This document shows, one piece after another, positions 45,219 through 64,000 of a stretch of DNA of 64,000 nt. Position numbers and translations under genes: made by a program. Every line of letters starts with the position of its first letter. Position 1 is the stretch's first letter. The DNA is taken from the NCBI GenBank assembly GCA_964430875.1, contig CAYSHP010000005.1, positions 8,740 through 72,739 of the forward strand, written 5' to 3'. The notes under the pieces were generated by a model that did not search any database, had not been told where the DNA came from, and saw only the letters and a list, made by a program, of their open reading frames with translations. The stretch comes from an uncultured Halanaerobiales bacterium. Its GTDB lineage: Bacteria > Bacillota > Halanaerobiia > Halanaerobiales > M55B127.

Positions 45219-46047
45219 TTTTGATTTTGACTATTACCAGGCAGCTAATGCTGAAGAAGCCGTTGAAAAATATTTAGAATTAAAAAATAAAAATAAAAAT
45301 GTATCTTATTATAATGGTGGTACAGAAATAGTTACTTATGCCAGAAAAGATAAAATGAACTTCGATGCATTAATAGATATAAAAAATATACCTGCCTGCT
45401 CTGTTTTAAAAGAAGATGACAATAAAGTAATTATGGGGGCTTCTGTTTCTCTAAATGAGATTGCAGAAAAAAATTATTTCCCACTTTTAAGTAAATCATC
45501 AGAAGTAATCGCAGACCATACCACCCGAAATCATATTACTTTGGGCGGTAATCTCACTGGTAGACTTCCCTATAAAGAAGCTCTATTACCTCTTTTAGTA
45601 GCTGAAGCAAAAGTTACTACTATAAATAAGGATGGCTATCAAACTAGGCCGATTACCGAAGTATTTGATAAAAGAATGGCTTTAGACCAGGAAGAAATTT
45701 TACTGCAAATAATTGTAGATAAAGATAAAACAAAACTGCCTTATTATCAAACTAGAAAAGTTAAGCAAAGTGAAATAGATTATCCTATTTTACACATTGC
45801 TGCCTTAAAAGAAAATGAACAAATAAAATTTGCCTTATCTTCATTATGTCCGTTCCCTTTTAGAGATGAAAATCTTGAAGAAATTATTAATGATAATTCA
45901 TTAGAAAAAACCGAAAAAATTAATGAGATTGTTAATAATTTGCCGGTTCCAATCAACTCAAACCTCAGAGGGGGCAAAGAATATAAAGAAATGCTATTTC
46001 GTAATTCTTTAGATGCCTGTTTAGACAGCCTGGGAGGTGGAAATTAA
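45211..46047 (+). CDS. Xanthine dehydrogenase-family FAD-binding subunit
   Basis: GGTE, LIDIK, GASVSL and RNHITLGGN. Confidence 0.85.
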   Translation: MISFDFDYYQAANAEEAVEKYLELKNKNKNVSYYNGGTEIVTYARKDKMNFDALIDIKNIPACSVLKEDDNKVIMGASVSLNEIAEKNYFPLLSKSSEVIADHTTRNHITLGGNLTGRLPYKEALLPLLVAEAKVTTINKDGYQTRPITEVFDKRMALDQEEILLQIIVDKDKTKLPYYQTRKVKQSEIDYPILHIAALKENEQIKFALSSLCPFPFRDENLEEIINDNSLEKTEKINEIVNNLPVPINSNLRGGKEYKEMLFRNSLDACLDSLGGGN

Positions 46048-46514
46048 TGAAAGCTTATAAAGGACATCAAGAAATTACCTTAAATATAAATAATGAAATT
46101 TATAATATTGTAGTAACTCCTCATGAAACATTATTAAATGTTATTAGAGAAAAACTAGAATTAACAGGTCCCAAACCGGGTTGTGAAAATGGTGACTGTG
46201 GAGCCTGCACTGTATTGATAGATGATAAACCTTATAAATCCTGTATGGCGCTCGCAGTTGAAATGGAAGGAAGAGAAATAACTACTGTGGAAGGACTGGA
46301 AAACACCGCTATTCAAGAGGCCTTTATTGATAAAGAAGGTTATCAATGCGGTTATTGTACATCAGGCTTTTTAGTTAATGCCTTTGCTCTTTTAGAGAAA
46401 TACGAAAAACCGGAAGAAAGTACAATTAAAGAATGGTTAAGTAGTAATCTATGTAGATGTACAGGTTATGAAGGAATTGAAAAAGCGGTTGAAAAAGTCA
46501 TTGATAATAGATAA
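46047..46514 (+). CDS. Xanthine dehydrogenase-family 2x[2Fe-2S] subunit
   Basis: GCENGDCGACTV...C, QCGYC and CRC. Confidence 0.9.
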   Translation: MKAYKGHQEITLNINNEIYNIVVTPHETLLNVIREKLELTGPKPGCENGDCGACTVLIDDKPYKSCMALAVEMEGREITTVEGLENTAIQEAFIDKEGYQCGYCTSGFLVNAFALLEKYEKPEESTIKEWLSSNLCRCTGYEGIEKAVEKVIDNR

Positions 46515-51813: not shown

Positions 51814-52347
51814 TTAGTCTTGATCTTTAAAACCTTTCCTGATTACTTTATAATCATTATTTTTAGTAACCAATTTATAAATATTAAAATTGGTTTTCAT
51901 ATCAATTTCTGGATGACGGACCGCAAAATTTATGGACGCAGAGCCTTCTTGACCAGTTCTGATTCTATGAAACACTTTAACTGAAGTTGATAAAATTGCC
52001 CCTCCATCATAAATCAATTCTCCATTTCTTTTAATTGAATGAGGGGAAATTTCGAATTTTTCAATTTTTCCATGTTCCGGAGTATATAAATCTACATGTC
52101 TAGTACCGAATAAAACTAAAAGATTATCTTCCTGGTGGGGGTGCATATACCAAGGCCTTTTAACCTCACCTATGCTACCCGGAGATAAAGCATTTTCTGC
52201 GTGAATCACTCTATCAATACCATCAACATTAGACAGATAATCCATATTTACCAGATCAAAGACAACTCCTTCAGTCTTTCTAAATACTTTAAGTGGGATG
52301 ACTTTAAACATATTTTTTTCAGCTGTAATAACTTCTTTATACTCCAT
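51814..52347 (-). CDS. Cupin-like hypothetical protein
   Basis: WYMHPHQED and FHRI motifs; RBS AAGGAGG. Confidence 0.6.
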   Translation of the reverse strand: MEYKEVITAEKNMFKVIPLKVFRKTEGVVFDLVNMDYLSNVDGIDRVIHAENALSPGSIGEVKRPWYMHPHQEDNLLVLFGTRHVDLYTPEHGKIEKFEISPHSIKRNGELIYDGGAILSTSVKVFHRIRTGQEGSASINFAVRHPEIDMKTNFNIYKLVTKNNDYKVIRKGFKDQD

Positions 52348-52371
52348 AATATTTCCTCCTTATTTTTAAAT

Positions 52372-52404
52372 AAAAAAATCCTCCCTGCTTTATAAGGAAG
52401 GATT
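52372..52404 (-). terminator. Intrinsic terminator after arsR
   Basis: Minus strand AATCCTTCCT-N8-AGGGAGGATT-TTTTT. Confidence 0.6.
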
Positions 52405-52410
52405 AATATA

Positions 52411-52704
52411 TTATTCTTTTTCAAAAATAGTATTTATTATTTTTTTCACTTCATCATTTTTAACATAGTACTTAATTTCCACTCCATTTCTTTGACCTTC
52501 TATTATATTGAGATCTTTCAGTTTGGTTAAATGTTGTGAAAGAGTAGATTGAGGTATATCTAAACAAGACTGCATTTTAGTTACATTATATCCTTCGCTC
52601 TCCATTAAGCCTTTCACTACACATAAGCGAATTGGATGTGAAATTGCTTTTAAAAGTTTAGCTTTCTCTTTAATTTCTTCCATATCTTTTATTATATTTT
52701 CCAA
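52411..52704 (-). CDS. ArsR/SmtB family transcriptional regulator
   Basis: KAISHPIRL, QSTLSQHL and RNGVEIKY winged HTH. Confidence 0.9.
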   Translation of the reverse strand: MENIIKDMEEIKEKAKLLKAISHPIRLCVVKGLMESEGYNVTKMQSCLDIPQSTLSQHLTKLKDLNIIEGQRNGVEIKYYVKNDEVKKIINTIFEKE

Positions 52705-52727
52705 AGTTAGTCCCTCCTAATCGTTTT

Positions 52728-52833
52728 CTATATCTATATATTATGAAATTATGATATTTAAGTCAAGAAATTTGTGAAAAATGATAAATTACATTTGACA
52801 AATATATTTATATATCATAATATTTAGATATAG
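52728..52833. promoter_or_regulatory. Mirrored divergent promoters (TTGACT/TTGACA-17-TAATAT) sharing a 19-bp operator-like sequence
   Basis: CTATATCTATATATTATGA (52728-52746) is the reverse complement of TCATAATATTTAGATATAG (52815-52833) with one mismatch. Confidence 0.7.
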
Positions 52834-52889
52834 TGATAAATATTTGGACTTCCAAGTGAACTATATCACACTTCAAAGGGGGATTAGAA

Positions 52890-53381
52890 TTGAATTTTAA
52901 AAGGTTTTTTTCTACACTAATTATTTATTTTATCTTCTGGTTAGCCTATACAAGTAGTTTTGCCACAGAAGAATTGTTAATAGGTATAGTAATTGCAGCT
53001 TTATTGTCTCTTTTTACATATAAAAGTTTTTCACAGATAAAAAGTGATAATAATATCTTTAAGAGAATTACTTCTTTTATAACCTATATACCTATTTTTA
53101 TCATTGAAATGGTTAAAGCTAATATCGATGTGGCTCGCCGAGTAATAAATCCAAATTTACCTATTAATCCAGGTATAGTAAAAATTAATACAGATTTAAA
53201 ATCAGATTATGCTAAATTGTTTTTAGCAAATTCTATTACCTTAACTCCGGGAACATTGACCATGGATGTTAAGGATGAAAATCTATATATACACTGGATT
53301 GATGTTGTTAGTACTAATAAAGATGAGCAAAAAGAGCAAATTGCTGGTAAATTTGAAGATACGCTTGGGGGGATTTTTTAA
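52890..53381 (+). CDS. mbxA: Mbx/Mrp subunit A (MnhE-like)
   Basis: PGIVK and ANSITLTPGT. Confidence 0.85.
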   Translation: MNFKRFFSTLIIYFIFWLAYTSSFATEELLIGIVIAALLSLFTYKSFSQIKSDNNIFKRITSFITYIPIFIIEMVKANIDVARRVINPNLPINPGIVKINTDLKSDYAKLFLANSITLTPGTLTMDVKDENLYIHWIDVVSTNKDEQKEQIAGKFEDTLGGIF

Positions 53382-53632
53382 TGTTTAGCTTTGTGTTCAT
53401 TTTAATTTTCATTTCAATAGTATTTGGAGCTTACCGATTTATAAAAGGTCCTTCCTCTCCAGATAGGGTTGTTGCCTTAGATACCTTAACCACAGTAGTA
53501 TCAGTTGCCTTAGTTGTTGGAGCCTTGTTCTTTAAAAATTATATCCTATTAGATATTTCATTTGTATTTGCTGCTCTTTCCTTTACAAGTGTTATAGTAA
53601 TTTCTCGTTATTTAGAAGGTGATAAATCATGA
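53381..53632 (+). CDS. mbxB: Mbx/Mrp subunit B (MnhF-like)
   Basis: GPSSPDRVVALD; three TM helices. Confidence 0.85.
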   Translation: MFSFVFILIFISIVFGAYRFIKGPSSPDRVVALDTLTTVVSVALVVGALFFKNYILLDISFVFAALSFTSVIVISRYLEGDKS

Positions 53633-53979
53633 TCTTTATCTCATTGATAGGTTATATACTTATTATCGTCGGAAGTATATTTTTACTTTTAGGTGCTTTA
53701 GGAATTGTTAGAATGCCTGACTTATATAATAGGATTCAAGCTGGTACTAAAGCAACTACATTAGGAGCTTTATCAGCTATTATTGGTGTAGGATTGGTTG
53801 AACCAAGTTGGTTTTTTAAAACTTTAATTATTGCTGTATTTATAGTATTAACCAACCCAATTGGTAGTCACAGCATTGCTCGTTCCGCTTATAAAAGTGG
53901 GTTAAAACCGGTTTTGAGCTCAGACATTGATGAATATGAAGAAAAAGACATCGAGAATGAAAGAAGTGATAGCGCATGA
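53629..53979 (+). CDS. mbxC: Mbx/Mrp subunit C (MnhG-like)
   Basis: PDLYNRIQAGTKATTLG and PIGSH. Confidence 0.85.
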   Translation: MIFISLIGYILIIVGSIFLLLGALGIVRMPDLYNRIQAGTKATTLGALSAIIGVGLVEPSWFFKTLIIAVFIVLTNPIGSHSIARSAYKSGLKPVLSSDIDEYEEKDIENERSDSA

Positions 53980-54218
53980 TGATTATCAGTTATTTACTTA
54001 TTTTATTAATGATTATAGGAGCATTAGCAGCAGTAATGTTTGAAAATTTATTAAATTCTATAATTTCATTAGGTTTGGTAAGTTTAATTGCAGCTGCTTT
54101 AATGTACTTTTTAAAAGCACCTGATGTAGCTATGACCGAAGCTATTATTGGGGCTGGATTAACAACTTCTATTTTTATATTTACATTATTAAAAATTAAA
54201 AGAGGTGATAACCAGTGA
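53976..54218 (+). CDS. mbxD: Mbx subunit D (DUF4040/MnhB N-terminal-like)
   Basis: APDVAMTEAIIG. Confidence 0.8.
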   Translation: MMIISYLLILLMIIGALAAVMFENLLNSIISLGLVSLIAAALMYFLKAPDVAMTEAIIGAGLTTSIFIFTLLKIKRGDNQ

Positions 54219-54967
54219 GATTTAGAGATTATCTATCCCTCTTGATGGTTATAATATTAGGCTTTATTATTTTTCAGGCTTTTACAGTCGGTAATGAAAA
54301 TAGTTTAAGTATTCCCGAATTTGGAAAAGCTAATTTAGAAAACAGAGTTTCAGAAAACTATATTAATAAAAGTGTTAATACAGAAAATGAAAGTCTTACA
54401 TTTAATGAAACAGAAAATCCCGAAAGTGGCTCAGCTAACTTTGTTACCTCAATCATTGCTAATTACCGGGCTTTAGATACATTAGGAGAAGTAACCGTCT
54501 TATTTATTGCAGCGGCCGGTTTAGCTTTTGTGCTAGGAGGAAACCAAGAAAATTATGCCTTCAAAGATGATGCCTCATTTATTGTAAGAACTGGAGTTAA
54601 AATTATTTTTCCACTCATGTTCTTATTAGGTATCTATATAGTAGTTCACGGACATTTAACTCCTGGGGGAGGATTTCAAGGTGGAGCAGTTATTGCTACA
54701 GCTGTTTTATTAAAATTCTTAGCTTATAAGGATTACAAGTTAAACCATACTGGTTTATCTTTACTGGAAAGTTTTGCAGGTATTTCATTTTTATTAATCG
54801 GTTTAGTTGGACTTTTAACAAATGGTTCATTTTTGACTAACTTTTTAAATAATGGTACTTTAGGAACCCTCTTCTCTGCTGGAATAATTCCCGTTGTCTA
54901 TATATTAATCGGGATTAAAGTAGGGGCTGAACTATCTGGTATCATCAGTAACTTAATAAATGCATAA
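54215..54967 (+). CDS. Mbx subunit E (MnhB-like)
   Basis: NYRALDTLGE and HGHLTPGGGFQGG. Confidence 0.85.
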   Translation: MRFRDYLSLLMVIILGFIIFQAFTVGNENSLSIPEFGKANLENRVSENYINKSVNTENESLTFNETENPESGSANFVTSIIANYRALDTLGEVTVLFIAAAGLAFVLGGNQENYAFKDDASFIVRTGVKIIFPLMFLLGIYIVVHGHLTPGGGFQGGAVIATAVLLKFLAYKDYKLNHTGLSLLESFAGISFLLIGLVGLLTNGSFLTNFLNNGTLGTLFSAGIIPVVYILIGIKVGAELSGIISNLINA

Positions 54968-54996
54968 ATTTCAATAACTAAAAAGGATGTGATACT

Positions 54997-55359
54997 TTGG
55001 CTTTTTTAAACCAATGGGCTTACCTTGGAGGTTCGATTATCTTAATTTTGATTGGTCTTTTTGGGGTATTGACCAGACGAAATTTAATAAAGATCGTTGT
55101 TAGTATCGGTATCATGGATACTGGCGTAAACCTCTTATTAGTCAGCTTAGGTTATATAAATAACGGAATTGCTCCAATAATGACGCAAGCTAATGCAACT
55201 AACAGTTTAAATTTTGTAGACCCTTTACCACAGGCATTAGTACTTACTGCCATTGTTATCGGGGTTGCAGTATTAGCTTTAGCTCTATCAATTGTGATTA
55301 AAATCTATGAAAATAAAAATACCCTACAAATCGATGAAATAAGGGGGTTAAACCTGTGA
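54997..55359 (+). CDS. mbxG: Mbx subunit G (MnhC-like)
   Basis: DPLPQALVLTAIVIG. Confidence 0.9.
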   Translation: MAFLNQWAYLGGSIILILIGLFGVLTRRNLIKIVVSIGIMDTGVNLLLVSLGYINNGIAPIMTQANATNSLNFVDPLPQALVLTAIVIGVAVLALALSIVIKIYENKNTLQIDEIRGLNL

Positions 55360-56807
55360 ATGCAAGCTTATTAATAGCAGTCCCTTTACTGACTGCCTTT
55401 GTAATACCATTAATTGCTAAGTTACATAAGAAAATTCCTGCATTTTTGGTATTACTAAGTACATTATTTAATGTAATTATAACCTTCTCTTTATATAGTA
55501 CAGTAATGGAAAATCCAATCGTAATTCAAATTGGTAATTGGGCTGTACCTTTTGGAATTAACCTTTATGTAGATAAATTAGCTTTGTTTTCTCTAATGGT
55601 TATCTCAGTTATTACCTTATTAATATCAATATATAATATAAGAAATACAGATGAATTAAATGAAAGTAAATTTAATACTATGTTTTTATTAGCTTTTACA
55701 GGTATAAATGGGATTATTTTAACAGGAGATATTTTTAACCTCTTTGTCTTTATTGAAATTGCAGCAATTTCCACTTATGTATTATCAACAATGAAAAGAA
55801 AAGAAAGTTATCAAGCTGCTTTTAAATATATTGTAATGGGATCAATTGCTTCTGTATTTTTACTAATGGCAATCGGCTTTTTATACAGCAGTATCGGAAG
55901 TTTAAATATGGGCGTAATTGCACAAAATGCTGGTAGTTTAAATCCCTCATTATTAAAAGTAGTCACATTATTATTGTTAATCGGAATTGGTATGGAAGCA
56001 GAACTTTTCCCGATGAATTTATGGGTTCCAGAAGTTTATGCTAAATCCTATGTAGGGGTAACTGCTTTGCTAAGTGGTGTACTTTCTGTTTCAGGCATAT
56101 ATGCCATGATAAGAGTATACTTTACGCTCTTTGGTAGTACTGATATTTTCTTTTACATTACTATAATCGGAGCTGTAACTTTAATATTTGGTGAATTCAT
56201 AGCTTACCAACAGAAAAATATTAAAAAAATGTTAGCCTATTCAAGTATTGCCCAGATGGGTCTGGTAATGGCAGTAATTAGTTTAAATACACCCACCGCT
56301 ATACAAGCCGGTTTATTTCAACTATTAAATCATTCCATACTAAAAGTACTGCTCTTTATTTCAGCTGGTTTTATGACCTATGCAGTTGGCAGTAATAAGA
56401 TTAAAGACCTTGCTGGTTTAGGTAAAAAAACACCAGTAGCTGGTTTTGGTTTTACACTCGGTGCATTAGGAATCATGGGTGTGCCATTTTTAAATGGATT
56501 TGTAAGTAAGATGCTGATTGTGCAAACTTCCCTTGGTTTGGGCAAATATTTTATTACAGGGTTGATTTTATTAGCTACTTTAATTGAAATTGCTTATTAC
56601 CTTAAAGTTATTCAAAACTTATACTTTAATGAAAATACTTTAAAAGTCAAAAAACTAATACCCTGCTTCTTACCGATTGGAGTTTTATCAGCAGCCATAC
56701 TTTATTTAGGAATAAGTCCACAAGTTGTTATTAACCTACTTAATCAAGTAGGCAATCAAGTTATTGATAATTCTAATTATATTATTTCAATATTGGGAGG
56801 GATTTAA
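55356..56807 (+). CDS. mbxH: Mbx subunit H (MnhD/NuoM/N-like antiporter subunit)
   Basis: DIFNLFVFIE, WVPEVY, KKMLAYSS and NHSILK. Confidence 0.9.
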   Translation: MNASLLIAVPLLTAFVIPLIAKLHKKIPAFLVLLSTLFNVIITFSLYSTVMENPIVIQIGNWAVPFGINLYVDKLALFSLMVISVITLLISIYNIRNTDELNESKFNTMFLLAFTGINGIILTGDIFNLFVFIEIAAISTYVLSTMKRKESYQAAFKYIVMGSIASVFLLMAIGFLYSSIGSLNMGVIAQNAGSLNPSLLKVVTLLLLIGIGMEAELFPMNLWVPEVYAKSYVGVTALLSGVLSVSGIYAMIRVYFTLFGSTDIFFYITIIGAVTLIFGEFIAYQQKNIKKMLAYSSIAQMGLVMAVISLNTPTAIQAGLFQLLNHSILKVLLFISAGFMTYAVGSNKIKDLAGLGKKTPVAGFGFTLGALGIMGVPFLNGFVSKMLIVQTSLGLGKYFITGLILLATLIEIAYYLKVIQNLYFNENTLKVKKLIPCFLPIGVLSAAILYLGISPQVVINLLNQVGNQVIDNSNYIISILGGI

Positions 56808-58679
56808 ATGAGTTTAAGTCAAATAATTATAATCCCTATCGTTTTATCAGTTATTACTTATTTGATTTCAAAAAAGATAAAAAAAGCAGGTTCTATTATA
56901 AATATAATCCTTTCAGGCTATATACTCTATACTTTAATTGATTTTTATGGACAATGGGATATCCTTAATCAAAGCTTGAATATTAGAGTACTAGGAGGTA
57001 ATTTTGAGTTTATCCTCAACAATTCTCCTTTAGCCTGGCTTTTAGCAATTATGACCGCGGGCAGTATATTTTTAATCAGTATCTTTACTGTTAATTCTCA
57101 AAAGAATGATAAAAATTCTGCAAGCTTTCACTTCTTTTTTTCAATATTATTAGGTAGTATCTTAGGAGTGGTTTTTGCAGGTGATTTAATGACACTCTTT
57201 ATCTTTTGGGAAGTTATGACTTACTCTTCCTTTTTCTTGATTTCTTCTGGTAAAAAGGAAGGGGCTAAAAAAGCTTCTTATCGTTATTTACTCTTAAGTG
57301 CTTTAGGGGCTTACTTAATGTTAACCTCAATATTTATAATCTATACTCAGACTAATTCATTGGAATTTACACAGGTAGCAAGTTATTTAGAAGGTCTACC
57401 AACTTTAAATTCAATTATTTTGATAATAATGATAGGAATTCCTTTCTTAATTAAAGCAGGTGTATTCCCCTTCCATGTTTGGGTAAATGGGGCACATAGT
57501 AATGCACCCAAGGAGTTTTCCCCTTTTCTATCCGGTTTAATGTTGAAAGTAGGTACTTATGGATTAATGCTTTTATTATACTTTGTACCACTTTATAACA
57601 TACTAGGGGATAGTATTAAATTTAGAGGTTTACCTCTATTCAATTATATATTAGCCATCTTTGGTGGAATTACAATTATTGCAGGAACAATATTAGCGAT
57701 AAGACAAGAAGATGTAAAAAGACTAGTGGCCTTTTCTTCTATTTCACAAATGGGTTATATTGTAATGGCACTAGCCATTTCAACTCCACTTGGTTTTACC
57801 GGTGGTCTGCTCCATTTGATGAACCATATGATATTTAAAACCACTATATTTTTAACAATGGCAGCTGTTATTTATAGGACACATACAACTAAGATGCATG
57901 AAATGGGAGGACTTATTTTTAGAATGCCGGTCACTTTTGCCGCCTATTTAACAGCCATTATTGCCTTAGCTGGTATCCCCCCTACAAACGGCTTTATTTC
58001 AAAGTGGGTAATATATCAAGCTTTAATCCAAAAAGGATATATTTTCCTTTCAGTAGCCGCCTTTTTTGGTAGTATTGGTTCTTTTATGTATGTATTTAAA
58101 CCATTAAGTACTGTCTTTTTAGGACAGCTCAAACCAGAACATAAAGATATTAAAGAAGTACCTTTTTTAATGCAGGTTCCCATGTATATCATGATGGCCC
58201 TGATGCTTTTATTCGGAGTTTTACCTGGTATTCAAATGAGAATTATTAATCAAATCGGTCAGTATCTAAATATTGAAACTGTCCAATCAACTCTTTATAC
58301 AATCTCCGGTGCATATGGTGCCTGGAACTCTTTAATAATCTTTAATGTCTTTGTAGGAGGCTTTATATTAGCTTTCTTAATTTTTATCTTTGCAAAGAAA
58401 TCAAAATTGGTCGGCCTAATGGACACTTACACAGCTGGTGAGTATATGGACGATCCGGAAAGTTACCATTATGCATATAAATATTATCGGCCTTTTGATC
58501 GTGTATTTGATTCTTTTGCTGCTAATAGTTTAACTAAAGCTTATGATACCTTCGCTGGAAATATAGTTAAATTAGGACAGGTATTTAGTAAATCCTTTGT
58601 AACCGGGAACGGACAAACTTATGCCTTTTATATGATCTTACTGATGATAATACTGGCATTTGCGGGGTGGATAGTATGA
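56808..58679 (+). CDS. Mbx subunit H' (second antiporter-like subunit, NuoL/MrpA-like)
   Basis: LFIFWE, PFHVWV, RLVAFSS, NHMIFK and NGFISKW. Confidence 0.85.
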   Translation: MSLSQIIIIPIVLSVITYLISKKIKKAGSIINIILSGYILYTLIDFYGQWDILNQSLNIRVLGGNFEFILNNSPLAWLLAIMTAGSIFLISIFTVNSQKNDKNSASFHFFFSILLGSILGVVFAGDLMTLFIFWEVMTYSSFFLISSGKKEGAKKASYRYLLLSALGAYLMLTSIFIIYTQTNSLEFTQVASYLEGLPTLNSIILIIMIGIPFLIKAGVFPFHVWVNGAHSNAPKEFSPFLSGLMLKVGTYGLMLLLYFVPLYNILGDSIKFRGLPLFNYILAIFGGITIIAGTILAIRQEDVKRLVAFSSISQMGYIVMALAISTPLGFTGGLLHLMNHMIFKTTIFLTMAAVIYRTHTTKMHEMGGLIFRMPVTFAAYLTAIIALAGIPPTNGFISKWVIYQALIQKGYIFLSVAAFFGSIGSFMYVFKPLSTVFLGQLKPEHKDIKEVPFLMQVPMYIMMALMLLFGVLPGIQMRIINQIGQYLNIETVQSTLYTISGAYGAWNSLIIFNVFVGGFILAFLIFIFAKKSKLVGLMDTYTAGEYMDDPESYHYAYKYYRPFDRVFDSFAANSLTKAYDTFAGNIVKLGQVFSKSFVTGNGQTYAFYMILLMIILAFAGWIV

Positions 58680-59563
58680 TTTTAACAATAATTCAGTTTA
58701 TACTTATAGCATTTGGAGCAATGGCTTTGGGTCTTCTTTTCATTGGTTTTGCCAAAAAAACTGTAGCCCGCACTCAAAAAAGAGTCGGTCCACCATTTTA
58801 TCAACCCTATATTGATGTCTTGAAATTATTCGGTAAAGACGCTATTACACACGGCTTTATCTTTGATTTTGGGGCAATAATGGCCTTTGGGGGCATGATA
58901 GCTACCCTATTTTTTGTACCAATTGCCAGTATTCAACTTTATAGTATGAGCGGCACCCTTTTATTAGTTATCTATTTGATGGCAATTGCTTATTTAGGTA
59001 TGGCAATGGCCACAGTTGGTTCAGGAAATCCTCTGGCTTCTGTTGGTATTTCAAGGGCTTTAACTCAAATGTTAGGTTATGAAATGCCATTTATAGTAGT
59101 TTTATTAACCTTAATATATAGAAGTAGTAATTCATCAATTTGGGGAATTGTGCAGGCACAACAAGGTGGGTTTTTAAACTGGAATTTAATTAATGTACCA
59201 ATTGGTACTGTTGTAGCTTTTATTGCCCTCTTAGGTTTAATGGGTAAAAAACCATTTGATGCACCTATCGCCCCCTCTGAAATTGCTTCAGGGCCGGTGG
59301 TTGAACATGGTGGTAAATATTTAGCACTATTAATGTTACAGCACGCTGTAGCAATTGTTGTTGAGACTGCTCTTTTTGTAAACCTCTTTTTAGGAGGCTC
59401 TTCCAACATAATCATTTTCATCTTGAAAATGCTTATTGTTTGGCTATTGGCTACTTTAATTGGTTCTATATTCCCACGTTTTAAAGTCGAGCAAGGTGTC
59501 TTATTTTACTGGAAGTGGCCTTTAATTGCCGCCTTGTTGCAAGCAGTCATCATTATTTTTTAA
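58676..59563 (+). CDS. mbxM: Mbx subunit M (NuoH-like)
   Basis: GPPFYQPYID, ISRAL and KKPFDAPIAPSE; ATGA overlap with the upstream stop. Confidence 0.85.
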   Translation: MILTIIQFILIAFGAMALGLLFIGFAKKTVARTQKRVGPPFYQPYIDVLKLFGKDAITHGFIFDFGAIMAFGGMIATLFFVPIASIQLYSMSGTLLLVIYLMAIAYLGMAMATVGSGNPLASVGISRALTQMLGYEMPFIVVLLTLIYRSSNSSIWGIVQAQQGGFLNWNLINVPIGTVVAFIALLGLMGKKPFDAPIAPSEIASGPVVEHGGKYLALLMLQHAVAIVVETALFVNLFLGGSSNIIIFILKMLIVWLLATLIGSIFPRFKVEQGVLFYWKWPLIAALLQAVIIIF

Positions 59564-59579
59564 TCAGGAGTGATCATTA

Positions 59580-60113
59580 ATGAAAGATAAATTTAAAAGT
59601 AGTAAATGGCAGGAGGTCATTAACTGGGCGCAAAAAAGATCCCTTTTTATGCTTCACTACTGTACAGGCTGTGGGGCAATTGAACTTCCTCCTACTATGA
59701 CTTCTAGATATGATATGAGTAGATTTGGAATCGGTCCTGCTGCTACCCCTAGACAGGCAGATATCCTCTTAATAACAGGCTATTTAAGCACTAAGACTTT
59801 AAGAAGGGTTATCTATACTTATGAACAAATGCAGGATCCCAAATTTGTAATGGGTTTTGGTTCCTGTACGATAAATGGGGGTATGTACTGGGATTCATAT
59901 AATACAATCAAACAACTTGATAAGTATATACCAGTTGATTTATATATAGCTGGTTGTATGCCTCGTCCGGAAGCAATTCTGGAAGGTTTTATGGAACTTA
60001 AAAACAAAATTGAAACTGGTAATGCTGATGGTTATCTAAGATATAAGGAAGATTATGATTTTTACAAAGAAAACCAAGAGAAAGTCTTAGGGGAGGTTAA
60101 GAGAAGACAATGA
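59580..60113 (+). CDS. mbxJ: Mbx subunit J (NuoB-like [4Fe-4S])
   Basis: CTGCGAIE, PRQAD, GSC and AGCMPRPEA. Confidence 0.9.
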   Translation: MKDKFKSSKWQEVINWAQKRSLFMLHYCTGCGAIELPPTMTSRYDMSRFGIGPAATPRQADILLITGYLSTKTLRRVIYTYEQMQDPKFVMGFGSCTINGGMYWDSYNTIKQLDKYIPVDLYIAGCMPRPEAILEGFMELKNKIETGNADGYLRYKEDYDFYKENQEKVLGEVKRRQ

Positions 60114-60592
60114 GAAATGAATCAGAAGTAATTGAACTGATCAAAAATAAATTAAATCCTCTCGATGTTAAAAAGTTAAGAACACAAAATCTGGCTGTCA
60201 CACTAAAAAAGGATGAATTAATTTCTGGATTAAATTATCTTAAAGCCCACAGTTATATTCATCTTGCTACTATAAGTTGTGTAGACTGGATAGATGATAA
60301 TGAATTCGAACTAGTTTATCATCTCTTCTCTTATGAAGATAAAATAAATATTAGTGTTAAAACAAGAATTGATAGAAAAGAATCTAAATTTGTAACCATA
60401 AAAAATATTTGGGCAGTTGCTCAATATTATGAACGCGATATACATGATTTTTTCGGTGTTGAATTTGAAGGAAATGATGATATGGATGAACTTATTTTAG
60501 AAAATTGGAATGATATTCCACCGATGAGAAAAGATTTTAATACCAGAGAATATGTAGATGAAAAATATGAATGGAGGGAATACCATGGATAA
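60110..60592 (+). CDS. mbxK: Mbx subunit K (NuoC-like)
   Basis: YERDIHDFFGVEFEG and PPMRKDF. Confidence 0.9.
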   Translation: MRNESEVIELIKNKLNPLDVKKLRTQNLAVTLKKDELISGLNYLKAHSYIHLATISCVDWIDDNEFELVYHLFSYEDKINISVKTRIDRKESKFVTIKNIWAVAQYYERDIHDFFGVEFEGNDDMDELILENWNDIPPMRKDFNTREYVDEKYEWREYHG

Positions 60593-61694
60593 AAGTAAAA
60601 TGACGGAAATGTTTTTTGGTCCTAACCATCCTGGTGTTCCAGGTAATTATGGTATAAATTATTATTATGAAGGTGATACAGTTGTATCAGCGGAACCTAA
60701 TGCTGGACACTTACACCGCGGATTTGAAAAATTAATGGAAGAAAGAGAATGGATTAAAAATACTCCTTTAGTTTGTAGAATCTGTGTTATGGAACCAGAT
60801 ATCAATGAAATGGTCTATGCTATGGGTTATGAAGCAATCGGTGAAATCGAAGTACCAAAAAGAGCCCAATATATTAGGTCAATCATCTTAGAACTGGCTA
60901 GAATTCAAGCCCACATTTTTTCTATCGGAGGTAATTCTGCGGCAATTGGTCTTTATTCAGCTATGCAGATAGGAGTTTTAGCACGTGATTATATATTAGA
61001 TATATTTGAAGAAATTACAGGTGGTAGAGTATATCATATCTACATTAGGCCAGGTGGGGTTAGACATGATATTGAAGATGAAACCTTTGACAAGATATTA
61101 GATCTATTAGATGACTTAGAAAATAATAGGATGCCGGAATTTCAAAAATTAATCTTTGAAAATCCTACTGCTCAAAAACGCTGGAAAGGTACAGCTGTTT
61201 TAAAACAGGAAGATGTACTTCGTTTAGGAGTTACCGGTCCTGCTTTAAGAGCGACTGGTCTTGAACATGATGTTAGACGACTGATGCCTTATGGAGCTTA
61301 TGATGAAGTAGACTTTGTAATTCCAACCGGCCAGGATGCTGATGCCTGGACTAGATTACAATTAAAAAGAAATGAAATTTTTCAAAGTATAAATATTATT
61401 AGACAGTTAATAAATAATATGCCGGATGGTCCTGTAAGTGTCAAATTAGGGAATGCTTTAAAGTATAAAATACCAGAAGGTGAAGCTTATGTTAAAGTTG
61501 AATCTTCTCGGGGAGAATATGGCTATTATATGGTCTCTGATGGTGGGTTAAAACCTTATAGAGTGCATGTGAGGGGTACATCTACTCCACTCGGATTATA
61601 TGGTGTAGAAGCACTCTTACCGGGTACAAGAATTGAAGATGTACCGGTCTGGGCCCATAGTTTAGGTATCTGTCCACCGGAATTTGATAGATAA
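60585..61694 (+). CDS. mbxL: Mbx subunit L (NuoD-like catalytic subunit without a full NiFe ligand set)
   Basis: GHLHRGFEKL, RICVMEPD, RVYHIY and SLGICPPEFDR; ATG 60585 after GGAGGG. Confidence 0.9.
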   Translation: MDKSKMTEMFFGPNHPGVPGNYGINYYYEGDTVVSAEPNAGHLHRGFEKLMEEREWIKNTPLVCRICVMEPDINEMVYAMGYEAIGEIEVPKRAQYIRSIILELARIQAHIFSIGGNSAAIGLYSAMQIGVLARDYILDIFEEITGGRVYHIYIRPGGVRHDIEDETFDKILDLLDDLENNRMPEFQKLIFENPTAQKRWKGTAVLKQEDVLRLGVTGPALRATGLEHDVRRLMPYGAYDEVDFVIPTGQDADAWTRLQLKRNEIFQSINIIRQLINNMPDGPVSVKLGNALKYKIPEGEAYVKVESSRGEYGYYMVSDGGLKPYRVHVRGTSTPLGLYGVEALLPGTRIEDVPVWAHSLGICPPEFDR

Positions 61695-61719
61695 TATTTC
61701 TCAAAGTGAGGTGAATTTG

Positions 61720-63516
61720 ATGAGTAAAGATAAAAAAAGTATTTTTTCTCCCACCGTTACATTTAAAAATTTATTTAAAAAACCTGAAACAGTTAAATTC
61801 CCAAAAGAAAGCAAAGAAACTGCTAAAAGATATCGTGGTTTTCATATAAATGACCTAGATAAGTGTATTGGTTGTGGAACCTGTGCAGAAATCTGTGATA
61901 ATAAAGCCATTGATATGGTTCAATTAGCTGATGTTAAAACCGAACTAGGACAACGTGATGAAAGACCTAAAATTGATTATGGGCGCTGTTGCTGGTGTGG
62001 GCTATGTGTTGATGTTTGTACTACTGGTTCTTTAGAATTTACACAAGACTATACTTATATTGATCAAGACCCTGATACTTTTTCTTATATACCTGATAAC
62101 AAAAATATTAATAAAGTAGAATTTGAAGTTGGTTATAAAAGAGATGAAGTTTCTGAACTTCTTGATTTAGATAGAGTGGAGATGGAAGAATTAAATCCAG
62201 CGAAAAGAGTCGATTCTTTTGTAGAAATTGTGCAGGGTTTTTCTAAAGAAAAGGCTGAAAAAGAAGCCTCCCGTTGTGTGGAATGTGATATTTGTACAGA
62301 AGCCTGTCCGGCTAGTATGAATATACCAGAATATATCCGGGGTATTTTTGATGAAGACTTAGATGAATCCTTAAAACAAATCTATGAAGATAATCCACTA
62401 CCCGAAGTATGTGGTAGAATATGTACTCATAAATGTGAAACGATCTGCTCTATTGGTCACCGCGGTGAACCGATCTCTATACGTTGGCTAAAAAGATATG
62501 CAGTAGATAATGTCGACTCTGCTGAATATCAAAAAGTATTAGGTACAGAAAAAATAGACCAGGTTGATAAACAGGTCGCTATTATTGGGGCAGGACCTGC
62601 TGGTCTCTCTGCTGCTCATTACTTAAGATTAATGGGATATCAGATTACTGTTTATGAAGCAGAAGAAAAAGCAGGAGGGATGATGAGATATGGTATTCCA
62701 GAATACAGATTACCATATGATCAACTAGATAAGGATATTAATTATATAAAAGAACTTGGTGTAGACTTTGTCTTTAATACTAGAGTCGGTGAAGATATAA
62801 AAATGCAAGAAATTGAAGATAAATATGATGCTGTTTTTGCTGCTACCGGTTTACATAATGGTAGGAGTACCAGAATTCCAGGTACAGATCACAATAATGT
62901 TTATCAGGCTATTTACTTACTAAAGAAAATTACTAAAGGCGAAAAAGTACCGGTTACTGAAAGAATTGTAGTAATTGGTGGAGGTAATGTTGCAATGGAT
63001 ATTGCAAGATCATTAGCTAGAATACAAAAACAAGAATTTGGAGAAGTTGATGTTATAGTTACTTCTTTAGAAACCGAAGATGTCATGCCTGCTGATGAAG
63101 AAGAAATCGAAGAAGCCCGCGAAGAAGGAGTAAAATTTGAACCGGGCCGCGGTCCAAAAGAAATCGTTGTTAATGAAGATGGCAGTATAGCACAATTATG
63201 TACAAACTGCTGTGTATCAGTATTTGATGATGATATGAACTTTAGTCCATCATTTGATAATGATGATATTAAAAACTTTGACTGTGATATGGTAGTAGAA
63301 GCCATCGGTCAAGGTGGAGATAATAGTTATATTGATGATAACTATGATATTGAATATGAAGGACCAAGAATAAAAGTTGATGAAGAACAGCAAACTTCTC
63401 TTCCCTGGTTATTTGCAGGTGGAGATATTGTGCAGGGGCCTGATGTTATTACCGGTATTAAAACCGGCCATGATGCAGCCGTAGGTATTGATAAATACTT
63501 ACGCGGTGAAAAATAA
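61720..63516 (+). CDS. MbxN/NuoI 2x[4Fe-4S] domain fused to a GltD/NfnB-like FAD/NAD(P)H oxidoreductase
   Basis: RYRG, CIGCGTC and CCWCGLC; then CVECDIC...CP, CGRIC...CE, GAGPAG, YGIPEYRLP and GGGNVAMD. Start 61720 after GAGGTG. Confidence 0.85.
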   Translation: MSKDKKSIFSPTVTFKNLFKKPETVKFPKESKETAKRYRGFHINDLDKCIGCGTCAEICDNKAIDMVQLADVKTELGQRDERPKIDYGRCCWCGLCVDVCTTGSLEFTQDYTYIDQDPDTFSYIPDNKNINKVEFEVGYKRDEVSELLDLDRVEMEELNPAKRVDSFVEIVQGFSKEKAEKEASRCVECDICTEACPASMNIPEYIRGIFDEDLDESLKQIYEDNPLPEVCGRICTHKCETICSIGHRGEPISIRWLKRYAVDNVDSAEYQKVLGTEKIDQVDKQVAIIGAGPAGLSAAHYLRLMGYQITVYEAEEKAGGMMRYGIPEYRLPYDQLDKDINYIKELGVDFVFNTRVGEDIKMQEIEDKYDAVFAATGLHNGRSTRIPGTDHNNVYQAIYLLKKITKGEKVPVTERIVVIGGGNVAMDIARSLARIQKQEFGEVDVIVTSLETEDVMPADEEEIEEAREEGVKFEPGRGPKEIVVNEDGSIAQLCTNCCVSVFDDDMNFSPSFDNDDIKNFDCDMVVEAIGQGGDNSYIDDNYDIEYEGPRIKVDEEQQTSLPWLFAGGDIVQGPDVITGIKTGHDAAVGIDKYLRGEK

Positions 63517-63528
63517 ATATATAATTTA

Positions 63529-63562
63529 AGCGGAGAGTAGAAATGCTCTCCGCTCTTTATTT
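63529..63562 (+). terminator. Intrinsic terminator ending the mbx operon
   Basis: AGCGGAGAGT-AGAAAT-GCTCTCCGCT followed by T-rich sequence. Confidence 0.8.
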
Positions 63563-63570
63563 ATAAACTT

Positions 63571-64000
63571 TTACTTCCGATGTTGAAGGGCTTTTATCGG
63601 ATCTTTTTTCGCAGCCCAATAAGCTGGAAAAATACTTGCTAAAGCAGAGGTCATTAGACCAAATGAATTGACTATAATAAATGCAGTTTGATTCCAAGAA
63701 CTATAAATTTTAGTTACTAATGGAAATCCTACATCTCCCATTACTTCTTTACCTCCACCTTCCATAAAAATCGCATAATCCATACCAAAATTAACTAAAT
63801 ACCAGATAGTTAAAGCTCCAAATATTGATCCAACTATTACCCCTATGATACCAATACCAATTGACTCATACATAAAAACTTGTACAATTTCTCTTTCCTT
63901 TAAACCTAATGCTTTCATCATTCCAATCTCTTCCATTCTTTCCAGAGCTGCTAATATTACAGTATTTATTATACCCATAGCTCCAATAATTAATATAATT
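63571..64000 (-). CDS. FtsX/LolE-like ABC permease (C-terminal part; continues beyond window end)
   Basis: ERMEEIGMMKALG and ASIFPAYWAAKKDPIKAL. The frame stays open upstream of the track's 63978 start. Confidence 0.8.
   Translation of the reverse strand, partial: IILIIGAMGIINTVILAALERMEEIGMMKALGLKEREIVQVFMYESIGIGIIGVIVGSIFGALTIWYLVNFGMDYAIFMEGGGKEVMGDVGFPLVTKIYSSWNQTAFIIVNSFGLMTSALASIFPAYWAAKKDPIKALQHRK

What the first reader, a model, noticed from the sequence alone, without database searches (positions are those of the whole stretch)
61720..63516. MbxN fused to a GltD/NfnB-like flavoprotein lacking the NADPH-type YRR motif
Seen: one ORF joins the NuoI-like ferredoxin domain to a 2x[4Fe-4S]/FAD/pyridine-nucleotide module. 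After the second Rossmann motif (GGGNVAMD) the strand ends in TSLE instead of YRR. Known: YRR marks NADP(H) use in GltD, NfnB and DsrL-2, while NAD(H)-preferring DsrL-1 lacks it; archaeal MBS takes electrons from ferredoxin. Inference: a built-in NADH input (NADH:polysulfide oxidoreductase) or an Rnf-like ferredoxin:NAD+ output, changing the energetics of the complex.
Basis: partly seen in the sequence, partly recalled or inferred. Interest (0 to 1): 0.65.

Follow-up and report, generated by a model that had tools for sequence, protein, structure and literature searches.

The report
NADH-type flavoprotein fused to MBS subunit
The last gene of a 13-gene, complex-I-like "sulfur respiration" operon really does fuse the usual iron-sulfur subunit to a flavoprotein that looks built for NADH rather than NADPH. 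The same fusion and the same motif occur in Thermotoga and hundreds of other bacteria, so this is a typical member of a known but biochemically untested family.

Summary
ORF 61720-63516 (598 aa, good Shine-Dalgarno) joins a NuoI/MbsN-like 2x[4Fe-4S] domain to a GltD/NfnB-type module (2x[4Fe-4S], FAD, pyridine nucleotide). After GGGNVAMD, strand beta2 ends in T-S-L-E where NfnB has Y-R-R.

It is the last gene of a 13-gene operon (52890-63516) collinear with Pyrococcus MBS. MbxJ and MbxL match MBS, not the hydrogenase MBH.

It is not peculiar to this window:
- The fusion is a curated NCBIfam family (PRK13984).
- It was noted in print in 2015.
- It sits in the same 13-gene operon in every locus with enough upstream DNA, across more than ten phyla.
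- Thermotoga maritima's own homolog also has S-L-E.

New here: the fused family splits into an xLE clade (this window, Thermotogota, Halanaerobiales, Spirochaetes, Bacteroidales, sulfur-oxidising Proteobacteria) and a YRR clade (Caldithrix, Chlorobi, Cloacimonadota). One MAG carries both.

S-L-E fits the pattern of the NAD(H)-specific DsrL-1 enzymes, and the Glu lies at the classic end-of-beta2 position. NAD(H) preference is therefore likely (about 0.7) but unmeasured.

Best reading: a built-in NADH dehydrogenase module feeding an ion-translocating, MBS-type sulfane-sulfur reductase. Direction and acceptor are inferred. It is a new member of a known kind, of moderate interest.

The parts
52795..52823 (+). 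Promoter-like site TTGACA-17-TAATAT, about 65 nt upstream of the first gene
   Evidence: Best-scoring sigma-70-like match on the + strand in 52300-64000. This is a consensus match only.
52890..53381 (+). mbxA (MrpE/MnhE-like membrane subunit)
   Evidence: Pfam MNHE, E 1.6e-43. Collinear in related loci.
53381..53632 (+). mbxB (MrpF-like)
   Evidence: Pfam MrpF_PhaF, E 1.2e-14.
53629..53979 (+). mbxC (MrpG-like)
   Evidence: Pfam PhaG_MnhG_YufB, E 6e-26.
53976..54218 (+). mbxD (MbhD-like)
   Evidence: Pfam MbhD, E 9e-20.
54215..54967 (+). mbxE/F (MbhE + MnhB-like)
   Evidence: Pfam MnhB, E 5e-24, and MbhE, E 1.4e-6.
54997..55359 (+). mbxG (NuoK/MrpC-like)
   Evidence: Pfam Oxidored_q2, E 7e-26.
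55356..56807 (+). mbxH (antiporter-like subunit 1)
   Evidence: Pfam Proton_antipo_M, E 4e-54.
56808..58679 (+). mbxH' (antiporter-like subunit 2, 623 aa)
   Evidence: Pfam Proton_antipo_M, E 1e-59. A second pump subunit is the MBS arrangement (PMC7684303).
58667..59563 (+). mbxM (NuoH-like membrane anchor)
   Evidence: Pfam NADHdh, E 8e-60.
59580..60113 (+). mbxJ (NuoB-like; proximal [4Fe-4S], proposed catalytic cluster)
   Evidence: 250.6 bits to MbsJ 6u8y_J against 106.9 to MbhJ. The alignment is gap-free over aa 11-175 and includes C25xxC28, C93 and C123. The three ligand Cys are invariant in 53 loci, while the non-ligand first Cys is often Gly.
60110..60592 (+). mbxK (NuoC-like)
   Evidence: Pfam Complex1_30kDa, E 1e-29.
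60558..61694 (+). mbxL (NuoD / hydrogenase-large-subunit-like, without a full NiFe site)
   Evidence: 328 bits to MbsL 6u8y_L against 134.6 to MbhL. The equivalents of MbsL C85 and C385 are conserved. An extra vestigial Cys (C73-x2-C76) is present, but the second C-terminal Cys is absent.
61720..63516 (+). mbxN-gltD fusion gene (598 aa), the finding
61726..62088 (+). NuoI/MbsN-like 2x[4Fe-4S] domain (aa 3-123). Cys: C49, C52, C55, C59 and C90, C93, C96, C100.
   Evidence: MbsN 6u8y_N E 1.8e-27 (aa 3-112). NuoI models cover aa 3-123. The Cys are invariant.
62089..62208 (+). Linker between the two modules (aa 124-163)
   Evidence: No domain hit. Residues 85-147 have pLDDT below 50 in the AF2 model.
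62209..62520 (+). Fer4_20 domain (aa 164-267): two further [4Fe-4S] sites. Cys: C186, C189, C192, C196, C231, C235, C239, C243.
   Evidence: Pfam Fer4_20, E 1.8e-29. All eight Cys are invariant in 30 homologs.
62587..62604 (+). FAD Rossmann motif GAGPAG (aa 290-295)
   Evidence: Translation. G290, G292 and G295 are invariant.
62977..63000 (+). Pyridine-nucleotide Rossmann motif GGGNVAMD (aa 420-427)
   Evidence: Translation. Invariant.
63064..63072 (+). S449-L450-E451, in place of the YRR 2'-phosphate motif, at and just after the end of strand beta2
   Evidence: Translation. Aligned to Y310-R311-R312 of 4ylf_B. Model strand spans 445-449. L450 and E451 are invariant.
63529..63554 (+). Terminator-like hairpin (11-bp stem, 6 GC pairs, then a T-rich tail), 13 nt after the stop codon

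Best explanation

Its N-terminal NuoI/MbsN-like domain carries the two [4Fe-4S] clusters that normally accept electrons from ferredoxin. In this family a GltD/NfnB-type module (two more [4Fe-4S], FAD, a dinucleotide site) is fused permanently to it.

Proposed path: NADH -> FAD -> 2x[4Fe-4S] (Fer4_20) -> 2x[4Fe-4S] (NuoI-like) -> the three-Cys proximal [4Fe-4S] of MbxJ -> S-S bond of polysulfide or organic sulfane sulfur. This is coupled to H+/Na+ translocation by MbxH/H'/M and the Mrp part.

The flavoprotein would thus do the job of complex I's N-module, but comes from an unrelated protein family. The dinucleotide site is of the NAD(H) type (S-L-E instead of Y-R-R, with Glu after beta2).

Shown here: gene structure, cofactor motifs, operon membership, MBS-type catalytic subunits, and family-wide conservation of the motif.

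Inferred: NAD(H) preference (about 0.7), electron direction from NADH inward, sulfane sulfur as acceptor, and ion coupling. With NADH (-320 mV) instead of ferredoxin, the drive towards polysulfide (about -260 mV) is about 12 kJ/mol per 2e-. That is about what the review quotes for MBH, which is energy-conserving.
For: Architecture and cofactors.

Operon: 13 genes in MBS order with Mrp, NuoH, NuoB, NuoC and NuoD families, bracketed by a promoter-like site and a terminator hairpin.

Linkage: every related locus with a full-length fusion and enough upstream DNA has the same collinear operon, across more than ten phyla. Unfused GltD/NfnB homologs do not.

MBS-type catalytic site:
- MbxJ scores 250.6 bits to MbsJ against 106.9 to MbhJ, gap-free through the short CxxC loop.
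- The three ligand Cys are invariant, and the non-ligand Cys is replaceable by Gly. This matches the three-Cys catalytic cluster of PMC7684303.
- MbxL scores 328 bits to MbsL against 134.6 to MbhL.

Coenzyme:
- S449-L450-E451 aligns to Y310-R311-R312.
- All solved relatives shown have YRR.
- YRR binds the 2'-phosphate, and NAD(H)-specific DsrL-1 enzymes carry S/T - L/.. - E/...
- The Glu follows the beta2 strand.
- The motif is invariant in the clade and shared by T. maritima.

Precedent for a GltD-like module as a non-bifurcating NAD(P)H plug on a longer FeS wire: the NfnABC and Stn structures are among the best matches.

Physiology in a relative: T. maritima mbxA is induced 4.4-fold by S0 (PMC9431562).

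Energetics: 42 kJ/mol (MBS) against 12 kJ/mol (MBH) per 2e- (PMC8165549).
Against: - No bacterial member has been purified or assayed. Papers call it 'putative' and of 'unknown function/direction'.
- Absence of YRR predicts loss of NADPH preference better than it predicts NADH use. A. vinosum DsrL-1A keeps residual NADPH activity.
- The AF2 model gives no confident position for the NuoI-like domain relative to the flavoprotein (pLDDT below 50 for residues 1-44 and 85-147). Cluster-to-cluster distances across the fusion are therefore unknown.
- A 60 mV drop is small for a complex with two pump subunits.
- The same operon occurs in sulfur-oxidising autotrophs and in an aerobic Rhodobacteraceae. 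There, NADH-to-sulfur respiration is not an obvious need, so the acceptor or the direction may differ.
Confidence: 0.5

Rival explanations
1. Rnf-like ferredoxin:NAD+ oxidoreductase. This is the original 'Mbx = Fd:NAD(P)+ oxidoreductase' idea and the reader's second option. Reduced ferredoxin docks on the FeS domains, electrons leave through FAD to NAD+, and the free energy drives ion export.
For: Older and comparative literature assigns exactly this role to mbx-like operons and to the gltD-like subunit (PMC4758237; the Mesotoga model). Fermenters such as Halanaerobiales need to re-oxidise ferredoxin. DsrL-1A is kinetically biased towards NAD+ reduction.
Against: Both substrates would react at the distal end of the peripheral arm. 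Electrons would never reach the proximal cluster and three-loop coupling site, yet that site is conserved here in its MBS form. For P. furiosus the Fd:NADP+ idea was replaced by direct polysulfide reduction. No ferredoxin-docking evidence could be obtained here.
Confidence: 0.15
2. The same complex runs in reverse. An ion gradient drives electrons from sulfide or polysulfide up to NAD+, a reverse-electron-flow route to NADH, as complex I does in chemolithotrophs.
For: xLE-type operons are common in sulfur-oxidising Gamma- and Betaproteobacteria, including Thiodiazotropha, Sedimenticola, Thiobacillaceae and Gallionellaceae, and in symbionts. In Endoriftia the complex is co-expressed with the rTCA cycle and its direction is stated to be unknown. 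The small potential gap makes the reaction easily reversible.
Against: For this window the host is a Halanaerobiales-type fermenter with no evident need for it. No biochemical precedent exists for S-S bond formation at the MBS cluster.
Confidence: 0.1
3. The site is not NADH-specific. It uses NADPH or both nucleotides, with the 2'-phosphate held by other residues.
For: No assay exists. AvDsrL-1A, which lacks YRR, still turns over NADPH weakly. Annotations call these proteins 'NADPH/NADH' small chains.
Against: Both arginines and the tyrosine are replaced, and an acidic residue is invariant at the position that normally repels the 2'-phosphate. A sister clade in the same operon type keeps YRR, which argues that the difference is functional.
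Confidence: 0.15
4. Flavin-based electron bifurcation or confurcation. The NfnB-like FAD splits the NADH electron pair between the complex and a second partner, or merges NADH and ferredoxin electrons.
For: The closest solved relatives, NfnB and NfnI-L, carry the bifurcating FAD.
Against: No NfnA-like [2Fe-2S]/FAD partner is encoded in the operon or its neighbours. In NfnABC/Stn, and in Xfn according to the review read here, the same module is not bifurcating. The Glu ligand of the NfnB proximal cluster appears to be Lys here (my reading of the alignment, using the ligand list).
Confidence: 0.05

Closest known systems
Pyrococcus furiosus MBS (membrane-bound sulfane reductase, formerly Mbx; PDB 6U8Y)
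   Same: Same 13-gene order. It has two antiporter-like subunits plus an Mrp module. MbxJ keeps the short CxxC loop and three ligand Cys. MbxL lacks a complete NiFe site. The N-terminal domain matches MbsN best.
   Different: MbsN is a free 208-aa subunit that takes electrons from ferredoxin. Here, residues beyond about 120 are replaced by a 480-aa FeS flavoprotein with a dinucleotide site. The host is a mesophilic-type, low-GC bacterium rather than an archaeon. MbxL keeps one more vestigial Cys.
Thermotoga maritima Mbx-like complex (TM1205-TM1217 in the literature) and NCBIfam NF010590 / PRK13984
   Same: Same fusion architecture end to end. T. maritima P0274 has the same Pfam domains and the same S-L-E motif. 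The gltD-like replacement of NuoI was already described in PMC4758237.
   Different: The window protein scores 889.6 bits, below the family's curated cut-off of 946, whereas a Kosmotogaceae protein scores 982. Identity to a Kosmotogaceae homolog is 52%; T. maritima was not compared directly with the window. The window belongs to a different phylum.
NfnB / NfnI-L / SudA and GltD (NADPH-dependent FeS flavoproteins)
   Same: Same fold (TM 0.85-0.88 to 4ylf_B, 5jca_L and 5jfc_L). Same Fer4_20 cluster domain, FAD motif and dinucleotide motif.
   Different: There is no YRR, and a 5-residue insertion (QKQEF) precedes beta2 relative to NfnB. There is no NfnA or GltB partner gene. The module is fused to a respiratory-complex subunit.
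DsrL-1 (NAD(H)-specific FeS flavoprotein of sulfur oxidisers)
   Same: At the YRR position it has the S/T - L - E-type triad, which correlates experimentally with NAD(H) use.
   Different: It is not a DsrL. It has no C-terminal ferredoxin domain and no dsrAB context, and the N-terminal NuoI-like domain is absent from DsrL.
Complex I N-module (NuoEFG) and the GltD-like NADPH modules of NfnABC/Stn
   Same: Functionally analogous: a nucleotide-oxidising flavoprotein feeding a chain of FeS clusters that ends at NuoB/NuoD homologs. NfnABC and Stn show the GltD-like module used as a plug-in.
   Different: It is unrelated in sequence to NuoF (FAD-Rossmann instead of FMN). The NfnABC and Stn modules carry YRR.

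Membership tests
NCBIfam NF010590 (PRK13984, 'putative oxidoreductase': NuoI-like + GltD-like fusion) | End-to-end match to the 611-position profile | tested here: met
   aa 4-597 match profile positions 7-609 of 611, E 8e-268.
NCBIfam NF010590 (PRK13984) | Score at or above the curated equivalog cut-off (946 bits) | tested here: not met
   889.6 bits. Kosmotogaceae L020 scores 982, other xLE members 796-894, and YRR-type members 572-717. The model appears centred on Thermotogota sequences.
MBS/Mbx-type respiratory complex (P. furiosus 6U8Y) | 13 genes in the order A-B-C-D-E-G-H-H'-M-J-K-L-N, with an Mrp module and two antiporter-like subunits | tested here: met
   The order is conserved in related loci.
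MBS/Mbx-type respiratory complex | MbsJ-type proximal-cluster motif: short CxxC loop, with the cluster held by three Cys (C28, C93, C123) | tested here: met
   Gap-free alignment to 6u8y_J, with all four Cys in register. The three ligands are invariant and the C25 equivalent is Gly in at least 11 of 53 loci. This is sequence-level evidence only; the coordination itself was not observed.
MBS/Mbx-type respiratory complex | Large subunit without the full four-Cys NiFe site (MbsL keeps C85 and C385) | tested here: met
   The C85 and C385 equivalents are present. One extra N-terminal Cys (C73) is present, and the second C-terminal Cys is absent (ICPPEFDR).
MBS/Mbx-type respiratory complex | Free MbsN subunit that accepts electrons from ferredoxin | tested here: not met
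   The MbsN-like domain (aa 3-112) is fused to a 480-aa flavoprotein. Ferredoxin use could not be tested.
MBS/Mbx-type respiratory complex | Polysulfide / dimethyltrisulfide reductase activity coupled to ion translocation | not testable with these tools
   Needs biochemistry. The only indirect support is S0 induction of T. maritima mbxA.
GltD / NfnB / SudA-type FeS flavoprotein | Fer4_20 domain with ligands for two [4Fe-4S], FAD GxGxxG motif, and a second GxGxxA dinucleotide motif | tested here: met
   Pfam. Eight Cys and both glycine motifs are invariant. Fold TM 0.87.
GltD / NfnB / SudA-type FeS flavoprotein (NADPH-dependent members) | YRR motif that holds the 2'-phosphate of NADPH | tested here: not met
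   S449-L450-E451 aligns to Y310-R311-R312. All five solved relatives shown have YRR.
NfnAB transhydrogenase | NfnA-type [2Fe-2S]/FAD partner subunit encoded alongside | tested here: not met
   None in the operon or in the genes examined between 42.8 and 64 kb. The rest of the genome is unknown.
DsrL-1 | NAD(H)-type triad S/T - L/V/.. - F/E/.. in place of YRR | tested here: met
   S-L-E fits the published pattern.
DsrL-1 | C-terminal 2x[4Fe-4S] ferredoxin domain and dsrAB genomic context | tested here: not met
   The protein ends with the flavoprotein domain. The neighbours are mbx genes.
NAD(H)-specific Rossmann sites in general | Acidic residue directly after strand beta2 | tested here: met
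   Model strand spans 445-449, followed by L450 and E451. E451 is invariant. Actual specificity was not measured.

The most novel reading that the evidence does not exclude
Bacterial MBS-type complexes would be a widespread, overlooked class of nucleotide-linked, ion-translocating sulfur oxidoreductases. They would come in two hard-wired flavours, NADH (xLE) and NADPH (YRR). Each would have acquired a GltD-type flavoprotein as a convergent equivalent of complex I's N-module. In sulfur-oxidising autotrophs and symbionts the NADH flavour would run backwards, making NADH directly from sulfide or stored sulfur at the expense of the ion gradient.
Probability: 0.2. Interest if true: 0.7.

Novelty: new member of a known kind. 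Interest (0 to 1): 0.4.

Why it matters
Bacterial Mbx/MBS-like operons are common in fermenters, candidate phyla and sulfur-oxidising symbionts. Published metabolic models still draw them either as ferredoxin-dependent sulfur reductases or as Fd:NADP+ oxidoreductases, or mark them 'direction unknown'.

If the fused flavoprotein is the real entry or exit point, those models need changing in three ways:
- The physiological partner is a pyridine nucleotide.
- The available energy per electron pair is roughly that of MBH rather than that of archaeal MBS.
- A three-residue signature (xLE against YRR) would tell from sequence alone whether a given organism wires the complex to its NADH pool or its NADPH pool.

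For this window the result is a confident annotation and a cheap, testable prediction. It is not a new kind of system.

Tried and rejected
- Literature: I searched for any biochemical work on the bacterial fusion. Only comparative or transcript-level mentions turned up.
- Papers not held: the 2013 FEMS review on modular respiratory complexes, which I recall (from memory, unverified) also mentions the Thermotoga fusion, and the 2015 NfnAB structure paper. The YRR contact is therefore cited second-hand through PMC7596348.
- Route to T. maritima: a homolog search with the Thermotogae MAG L062 protein did not return T. maritima. L062 turned out to be a YRR-type outlier. A search with Kosmotogaceae L020 did return it.
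- Structure: AF2 on a 30-sequence alignment modelled the flavoprotein well but not the NuoI-like domain or linker. I could not estimate inter-cluster distances or domain packing. Coordinates are not exposed, so the E451 position is inferred from secondary structure only.
- Flanking genes: I looked for conserved upstream or downstream partners that might reveal the acceptor. Nothing is conserved upstream. Downstream there is only a rubrerythrin (Proteobacteria; fused in a spirochaete) and a DHODH-like gene (Bacteroidales), and neither is present in the window.
- Hydrogenase reading rejected: MbxJ and MbxL score far better to MBS than to MBH, and the NiFe ligand set is incomplete.
- DsrL and NfnAB membership rejected: see the membership tests.
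- Phylogeny: the neighbour-joining tree is midpoint-rooted and unbootstrapped. I do not rely on it to say whether the fusion arose once or twice.
Full report
**What is at the coordinates.**
The + strand carries one long ORF ending at 63516. The ATG at 61720 is preceded by GAGGTG at a spacing of 7 nt.

Pfam finds three domains:
- a 4Fe-4S dicluster domain (aa 43-105),
- Fer4_20 (aa 164-267),
- Pyr_redox_2 (aa 285-576).

The N-terminus matches NuoI models, and among solved structures it best matches P. furiosus MbsN (6u8y_N, E 1.8e-27, against 6.8e-13 for MbhN). Residues 150-598 match NfnB (4ylf_B, E 7e-75) and NfnI-L (5jca_L). An AlphaFold2 model built on 30 homologs is confident for the flavoprotein part, and Foldseek places it on 5jca_L with TM 0.87.

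All sixteen Cys needed for four [4Fe-4S] clusters are invariant in a 30-sequence alignment spanning 57-90% identity. So are the FAD motif GAGPAG and the second dinucleotide motif GGGNVAMD.

**The motif.**
HMMER aligns VIVTSLETEDVMPA of the window to VYIVYRRTEREMPA of T. maritima NfnB. S449-L450-E451 therefore replaces Y310-R311-R312. All five solved relatives printed have YRR at this position: NfnA of T. sibiricus, the Nfn-ABC subunit of C. saccharolyticus, StnC, PfNfnI-L and TmNfnB.

- YRR accommodates the 2'-phosphate in NfnB.
- YRR is present in the strictly NADP(H)-dependent DsrL-2.
- In the NAD(H)-dependent DsrL-1 enzymes it is replaced by S/T - L/V/N/R/G/A/I - F/E/H/Q/Y/S/V/A.

S-L-E fits that pattern exactly. 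In the model, beta2 spans residues 445-449, so E451 lies two residues past the end of the strand. From general knowledge of Rossmann folds, an acidic residue there hydrogen-bonds the adenosine ribose of NAD and disfavours the 2'-phosphate of NADP.

**The surroundings.**
The gene is the last of thirteen co-directional, tightly packed genes (52890-63516). Pfam and PDB searches identify them as follows:
- MrpE-, MrpF- and MrpG-like, MbhD-like, MbhE/MnhB-like and NuoK-like subunits;
- two antiporter-like subunits (483 and 623 aa);
- NuoH-, NuoB-, NuoC- and NuoD-like subunits.

This is the order of P. furiosus mbsABCDEGHH'MJKLN. A TTGACA-17-TAATAT site lies about 65 nt upstream of the first gene, and an 11-bp GC-rich hairpin with a T-rich tail lies 13 nt after the last stop codon.

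The catalytic subunits are of the MBS type, not the hydrogenase type:
- MbxJ scores 250.6 bits to MbsJ against 106.9 to MbhJ. It aligns without gaps through the CxxC loop, whose shortness leaves the proximal cluster with only three Cys ligands in MBS.
- Across 53 related operons the three ligand Cys are invariant. The non-ligand first Cys (MbsJ C25) is Gly in at least eleven of them.
- MbxL scores 328 bits to MbsL against 134.6 to MbhL and keeps the C85 and C385 equivalents.
- MbxL also has one extra vestigial Cys (C73-x2-C76), but it lacks the second C-terminal NiFe ligand.

**How common it is.**
The nearest relatives (81-94% identity) come from uncultured Halanaerobiales.

Among the 80 best loci kept, full-length fusions come from Spirochaetes, Bacteroidales, Cloacimonadota, Fermentibacteria, Thermotogota, Planctomycetota, Verrucomicrobiota, Aminicenantes and many sulfur-oxidising Alpha-, Beta- and Gammaproteobacteria. 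Every locus with a full-length fusion and enough upstream DNA carries the same collinear 13-gene operon; unfused GltD/NfnB homologs do not.

The architecture is a curated NCBIfam family, PRK13984. The window matches it end to end at 889.6 bits, just under the 946-bit cut-off. Degli Esposti (2015) already wrote that in the mbx-like operons of Thermotoga and Proteobacteria the NuoI subunit is replaced by a gltD-related flavoprotein that interacts with NAD(P)(H), often followed by a rubrerythrin (PMC4758237). The fusion itself is therefore known.

T. maritima MSB8's protein (P0274, 615 aa, same domains) reads VQVLSLEGCFEDMPAD, which is also S-L-E. Thermosipho, Petrotoga, Fervidobacterium and Mesotoga have S/C-L-E as well. 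The motif is thus a property of the classical bacterial Mbx family and not a deviation in this window.

**What I did not find described.**
The fused proteins fall into two groups.

The xLE group (S/C/A-L-E) always has a short insertion before beta2. It contains the window, Halanaerobiales, Thermotogota, Spirochaetes, Bacteroidales, Planctomycetota and the proteobacterial sulfur oxidisers.

The YRR group contains Caldithrix, Chlorobi-type bacteria, Ca. Sulfidibacterium, Cloacimonadota, Aminicenantes, one Thermotogae MAG and others.

Among 327 sampled sequences, fused proteins carried SLE 133 times, ALE 18, CLE 8 and YRR 125 times. The sampling was steered by my two queries, so these are not frequencies.

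A Fermentibacteraceae MAG (AUK191) carries one operon of each kind (L015 and L060). The other subunits (H, H', M, J, K, L) are about equally similar to the window's in both groups. PRK13984 scores separate the two groups: 796-982 bits against 572-717.

The simplest reading is that the same machine exists in an NAD(H)-wired and an NADP(H)-wired version.

**Mechanism.**
The conserved parts suggest a linear wire: dinucleotide, FAD, two Fer4_20 clusters, two NuoI-type clusters, then the three-Cys MbxJ cluster in the chamber formed with MbxL, MbxM and MbxH'. That chamber is the coupling site in MBS, MBH and complex I. I therefore favour NADH as donor and sulfane sulfur as acceptor, with ion export.

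The published figures are 42 kJ/mol per 2e- for Fd to polysulfide and 12 kJ/mol for MBH. Replacing ferredoxin by NADH leaves roughly the MBH amount. That is small, but in MBH it is evidently enough.

A ferredoxin:NAD+ (Rnf-like) role is the traditional annotation. It would, however, bypass the conserved coupling site.

Reverse operation, with gradient-driven NAD+ reduction, is attractive for the sulfur-oxidising carriers. The Endoriftia authors list the direction as unknown. It is less attractive for a Halanaerobiales fermenter.

Bifurcation lacks a second partner.

None of this has been tested in any bacterium. The only physiological hint is S0 induction of T. maritima mbxA.

**Verdict.**
- The object is a typical member of a known, widespread and biochemically uncharacterised family.
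- The useful additions are that the Thermotoga homolog shares the motif, and that a YRR-bearing sister group provides a natural control for the simple kinetic test.

Noticed in passing
L015 (4826-6613) and L060 (10001-11737), both from Fermentibacteraceae MAG AUK191: One genome carries two complete mbx-like operons. One has a C-L-E (NAD(H)-type) fusion protein and the other a YRR (NADP(H)-type) one.
   Followed up: partly
22 proteobacterial loci (e.g. L021, L023, L025, L034), directly downstream of the fusion gene; P0075 aa 608-746: A rubrerythrin-domain protein of about 165 aa (Pfam PF02915, E 2e-11) follows the fusion gene in Proteobacteria. In a spirochaete homolog (P0075, ~750 aa) the same domain is fused to the C-terminus; other ~750-aa spirochaete homologs carry the same precomputed Pfam label. 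The window has no such gene or domain.
   Followed up: partly
L009, L010, L012, L014 (Bacteroidales/Bacteroidetes), 3-26 nt after the fusion gene: A conserved ORF of about 330 aa that looks like a class-1 dihydroorotate / dihydropyrimidine dehydrogenase FMN subunit follows the fusion gene. This recalls the GltD-like plus DHODH-like pairing of dihydropyrimidine dehydrogenase. Judged by eye from the sequence; not scanned against Pfam.
   Followed up: no
window 60774-60785 (MbxL C73-R-I-C76): The window's MbxL keeps a CxxC pair at the N-terminal hydrogenase NiFe-ligand position, where P. furiosus MbsL has a single Cys. Proteobacterial homologs have Pro at the first position, and some have Tyr in place of the C-terminal Cys.
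   Followed up: partly
window 59655-59666 (MbxJ C28-x2-C31) and related loci: The first Cys of the MbxJ CxxC motif (equivalent to the non-ligand C25 of MbsJ) is Gly in at least 11 of 53 related operons, while the other three Cys never vary. This is independent evolutionary support for the three-Cys proximal cluster proposed from the MBS structure.
   Followed up: yes
window 52411-52704 (-): An ArsR/HTH_20-family regulator (97 aa) is transcribed divergently from the operon, with the promoter-like sites of both in the 185-nt gap. It is a candidate local regulator. Conservation could not be judged because related contigs are short upstream.
   Followed up: partly
window 42885-46514 (+): A three-gene xanthine-dehydrogenase-type molybdoenzyme: MoCo-binding large subunit, FAD_binding_5 subunit and [2Fe-2S] subunit. 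It appears unrelated to the operon.
   Followed up: no
window 51814-52347 (-): A 177-aa ORF between the 5'-nucleotidase-LysM gene and the ArsR regulator has no Pfam match at E 1e-5 or better.
   Followed up: no
L068, L071, L073, L075, L077, L083, L086 (Acidobacteriota and a Limnocylindrales MAG): These unfused GltD-like proteins of 650-690 aa carry C-L-E (C-I-E in L077, S-L-E in L071) instead of YRR, plus an insertion of about 30 aa right after the GGGNVAMD helix. This resembles the roughly 32-aa insertion described for DsrL-1A. In a rough NJ tree, L068 and other unfused C-L-E proteins sit next to the xLE fusion clade.
   Followed up: no
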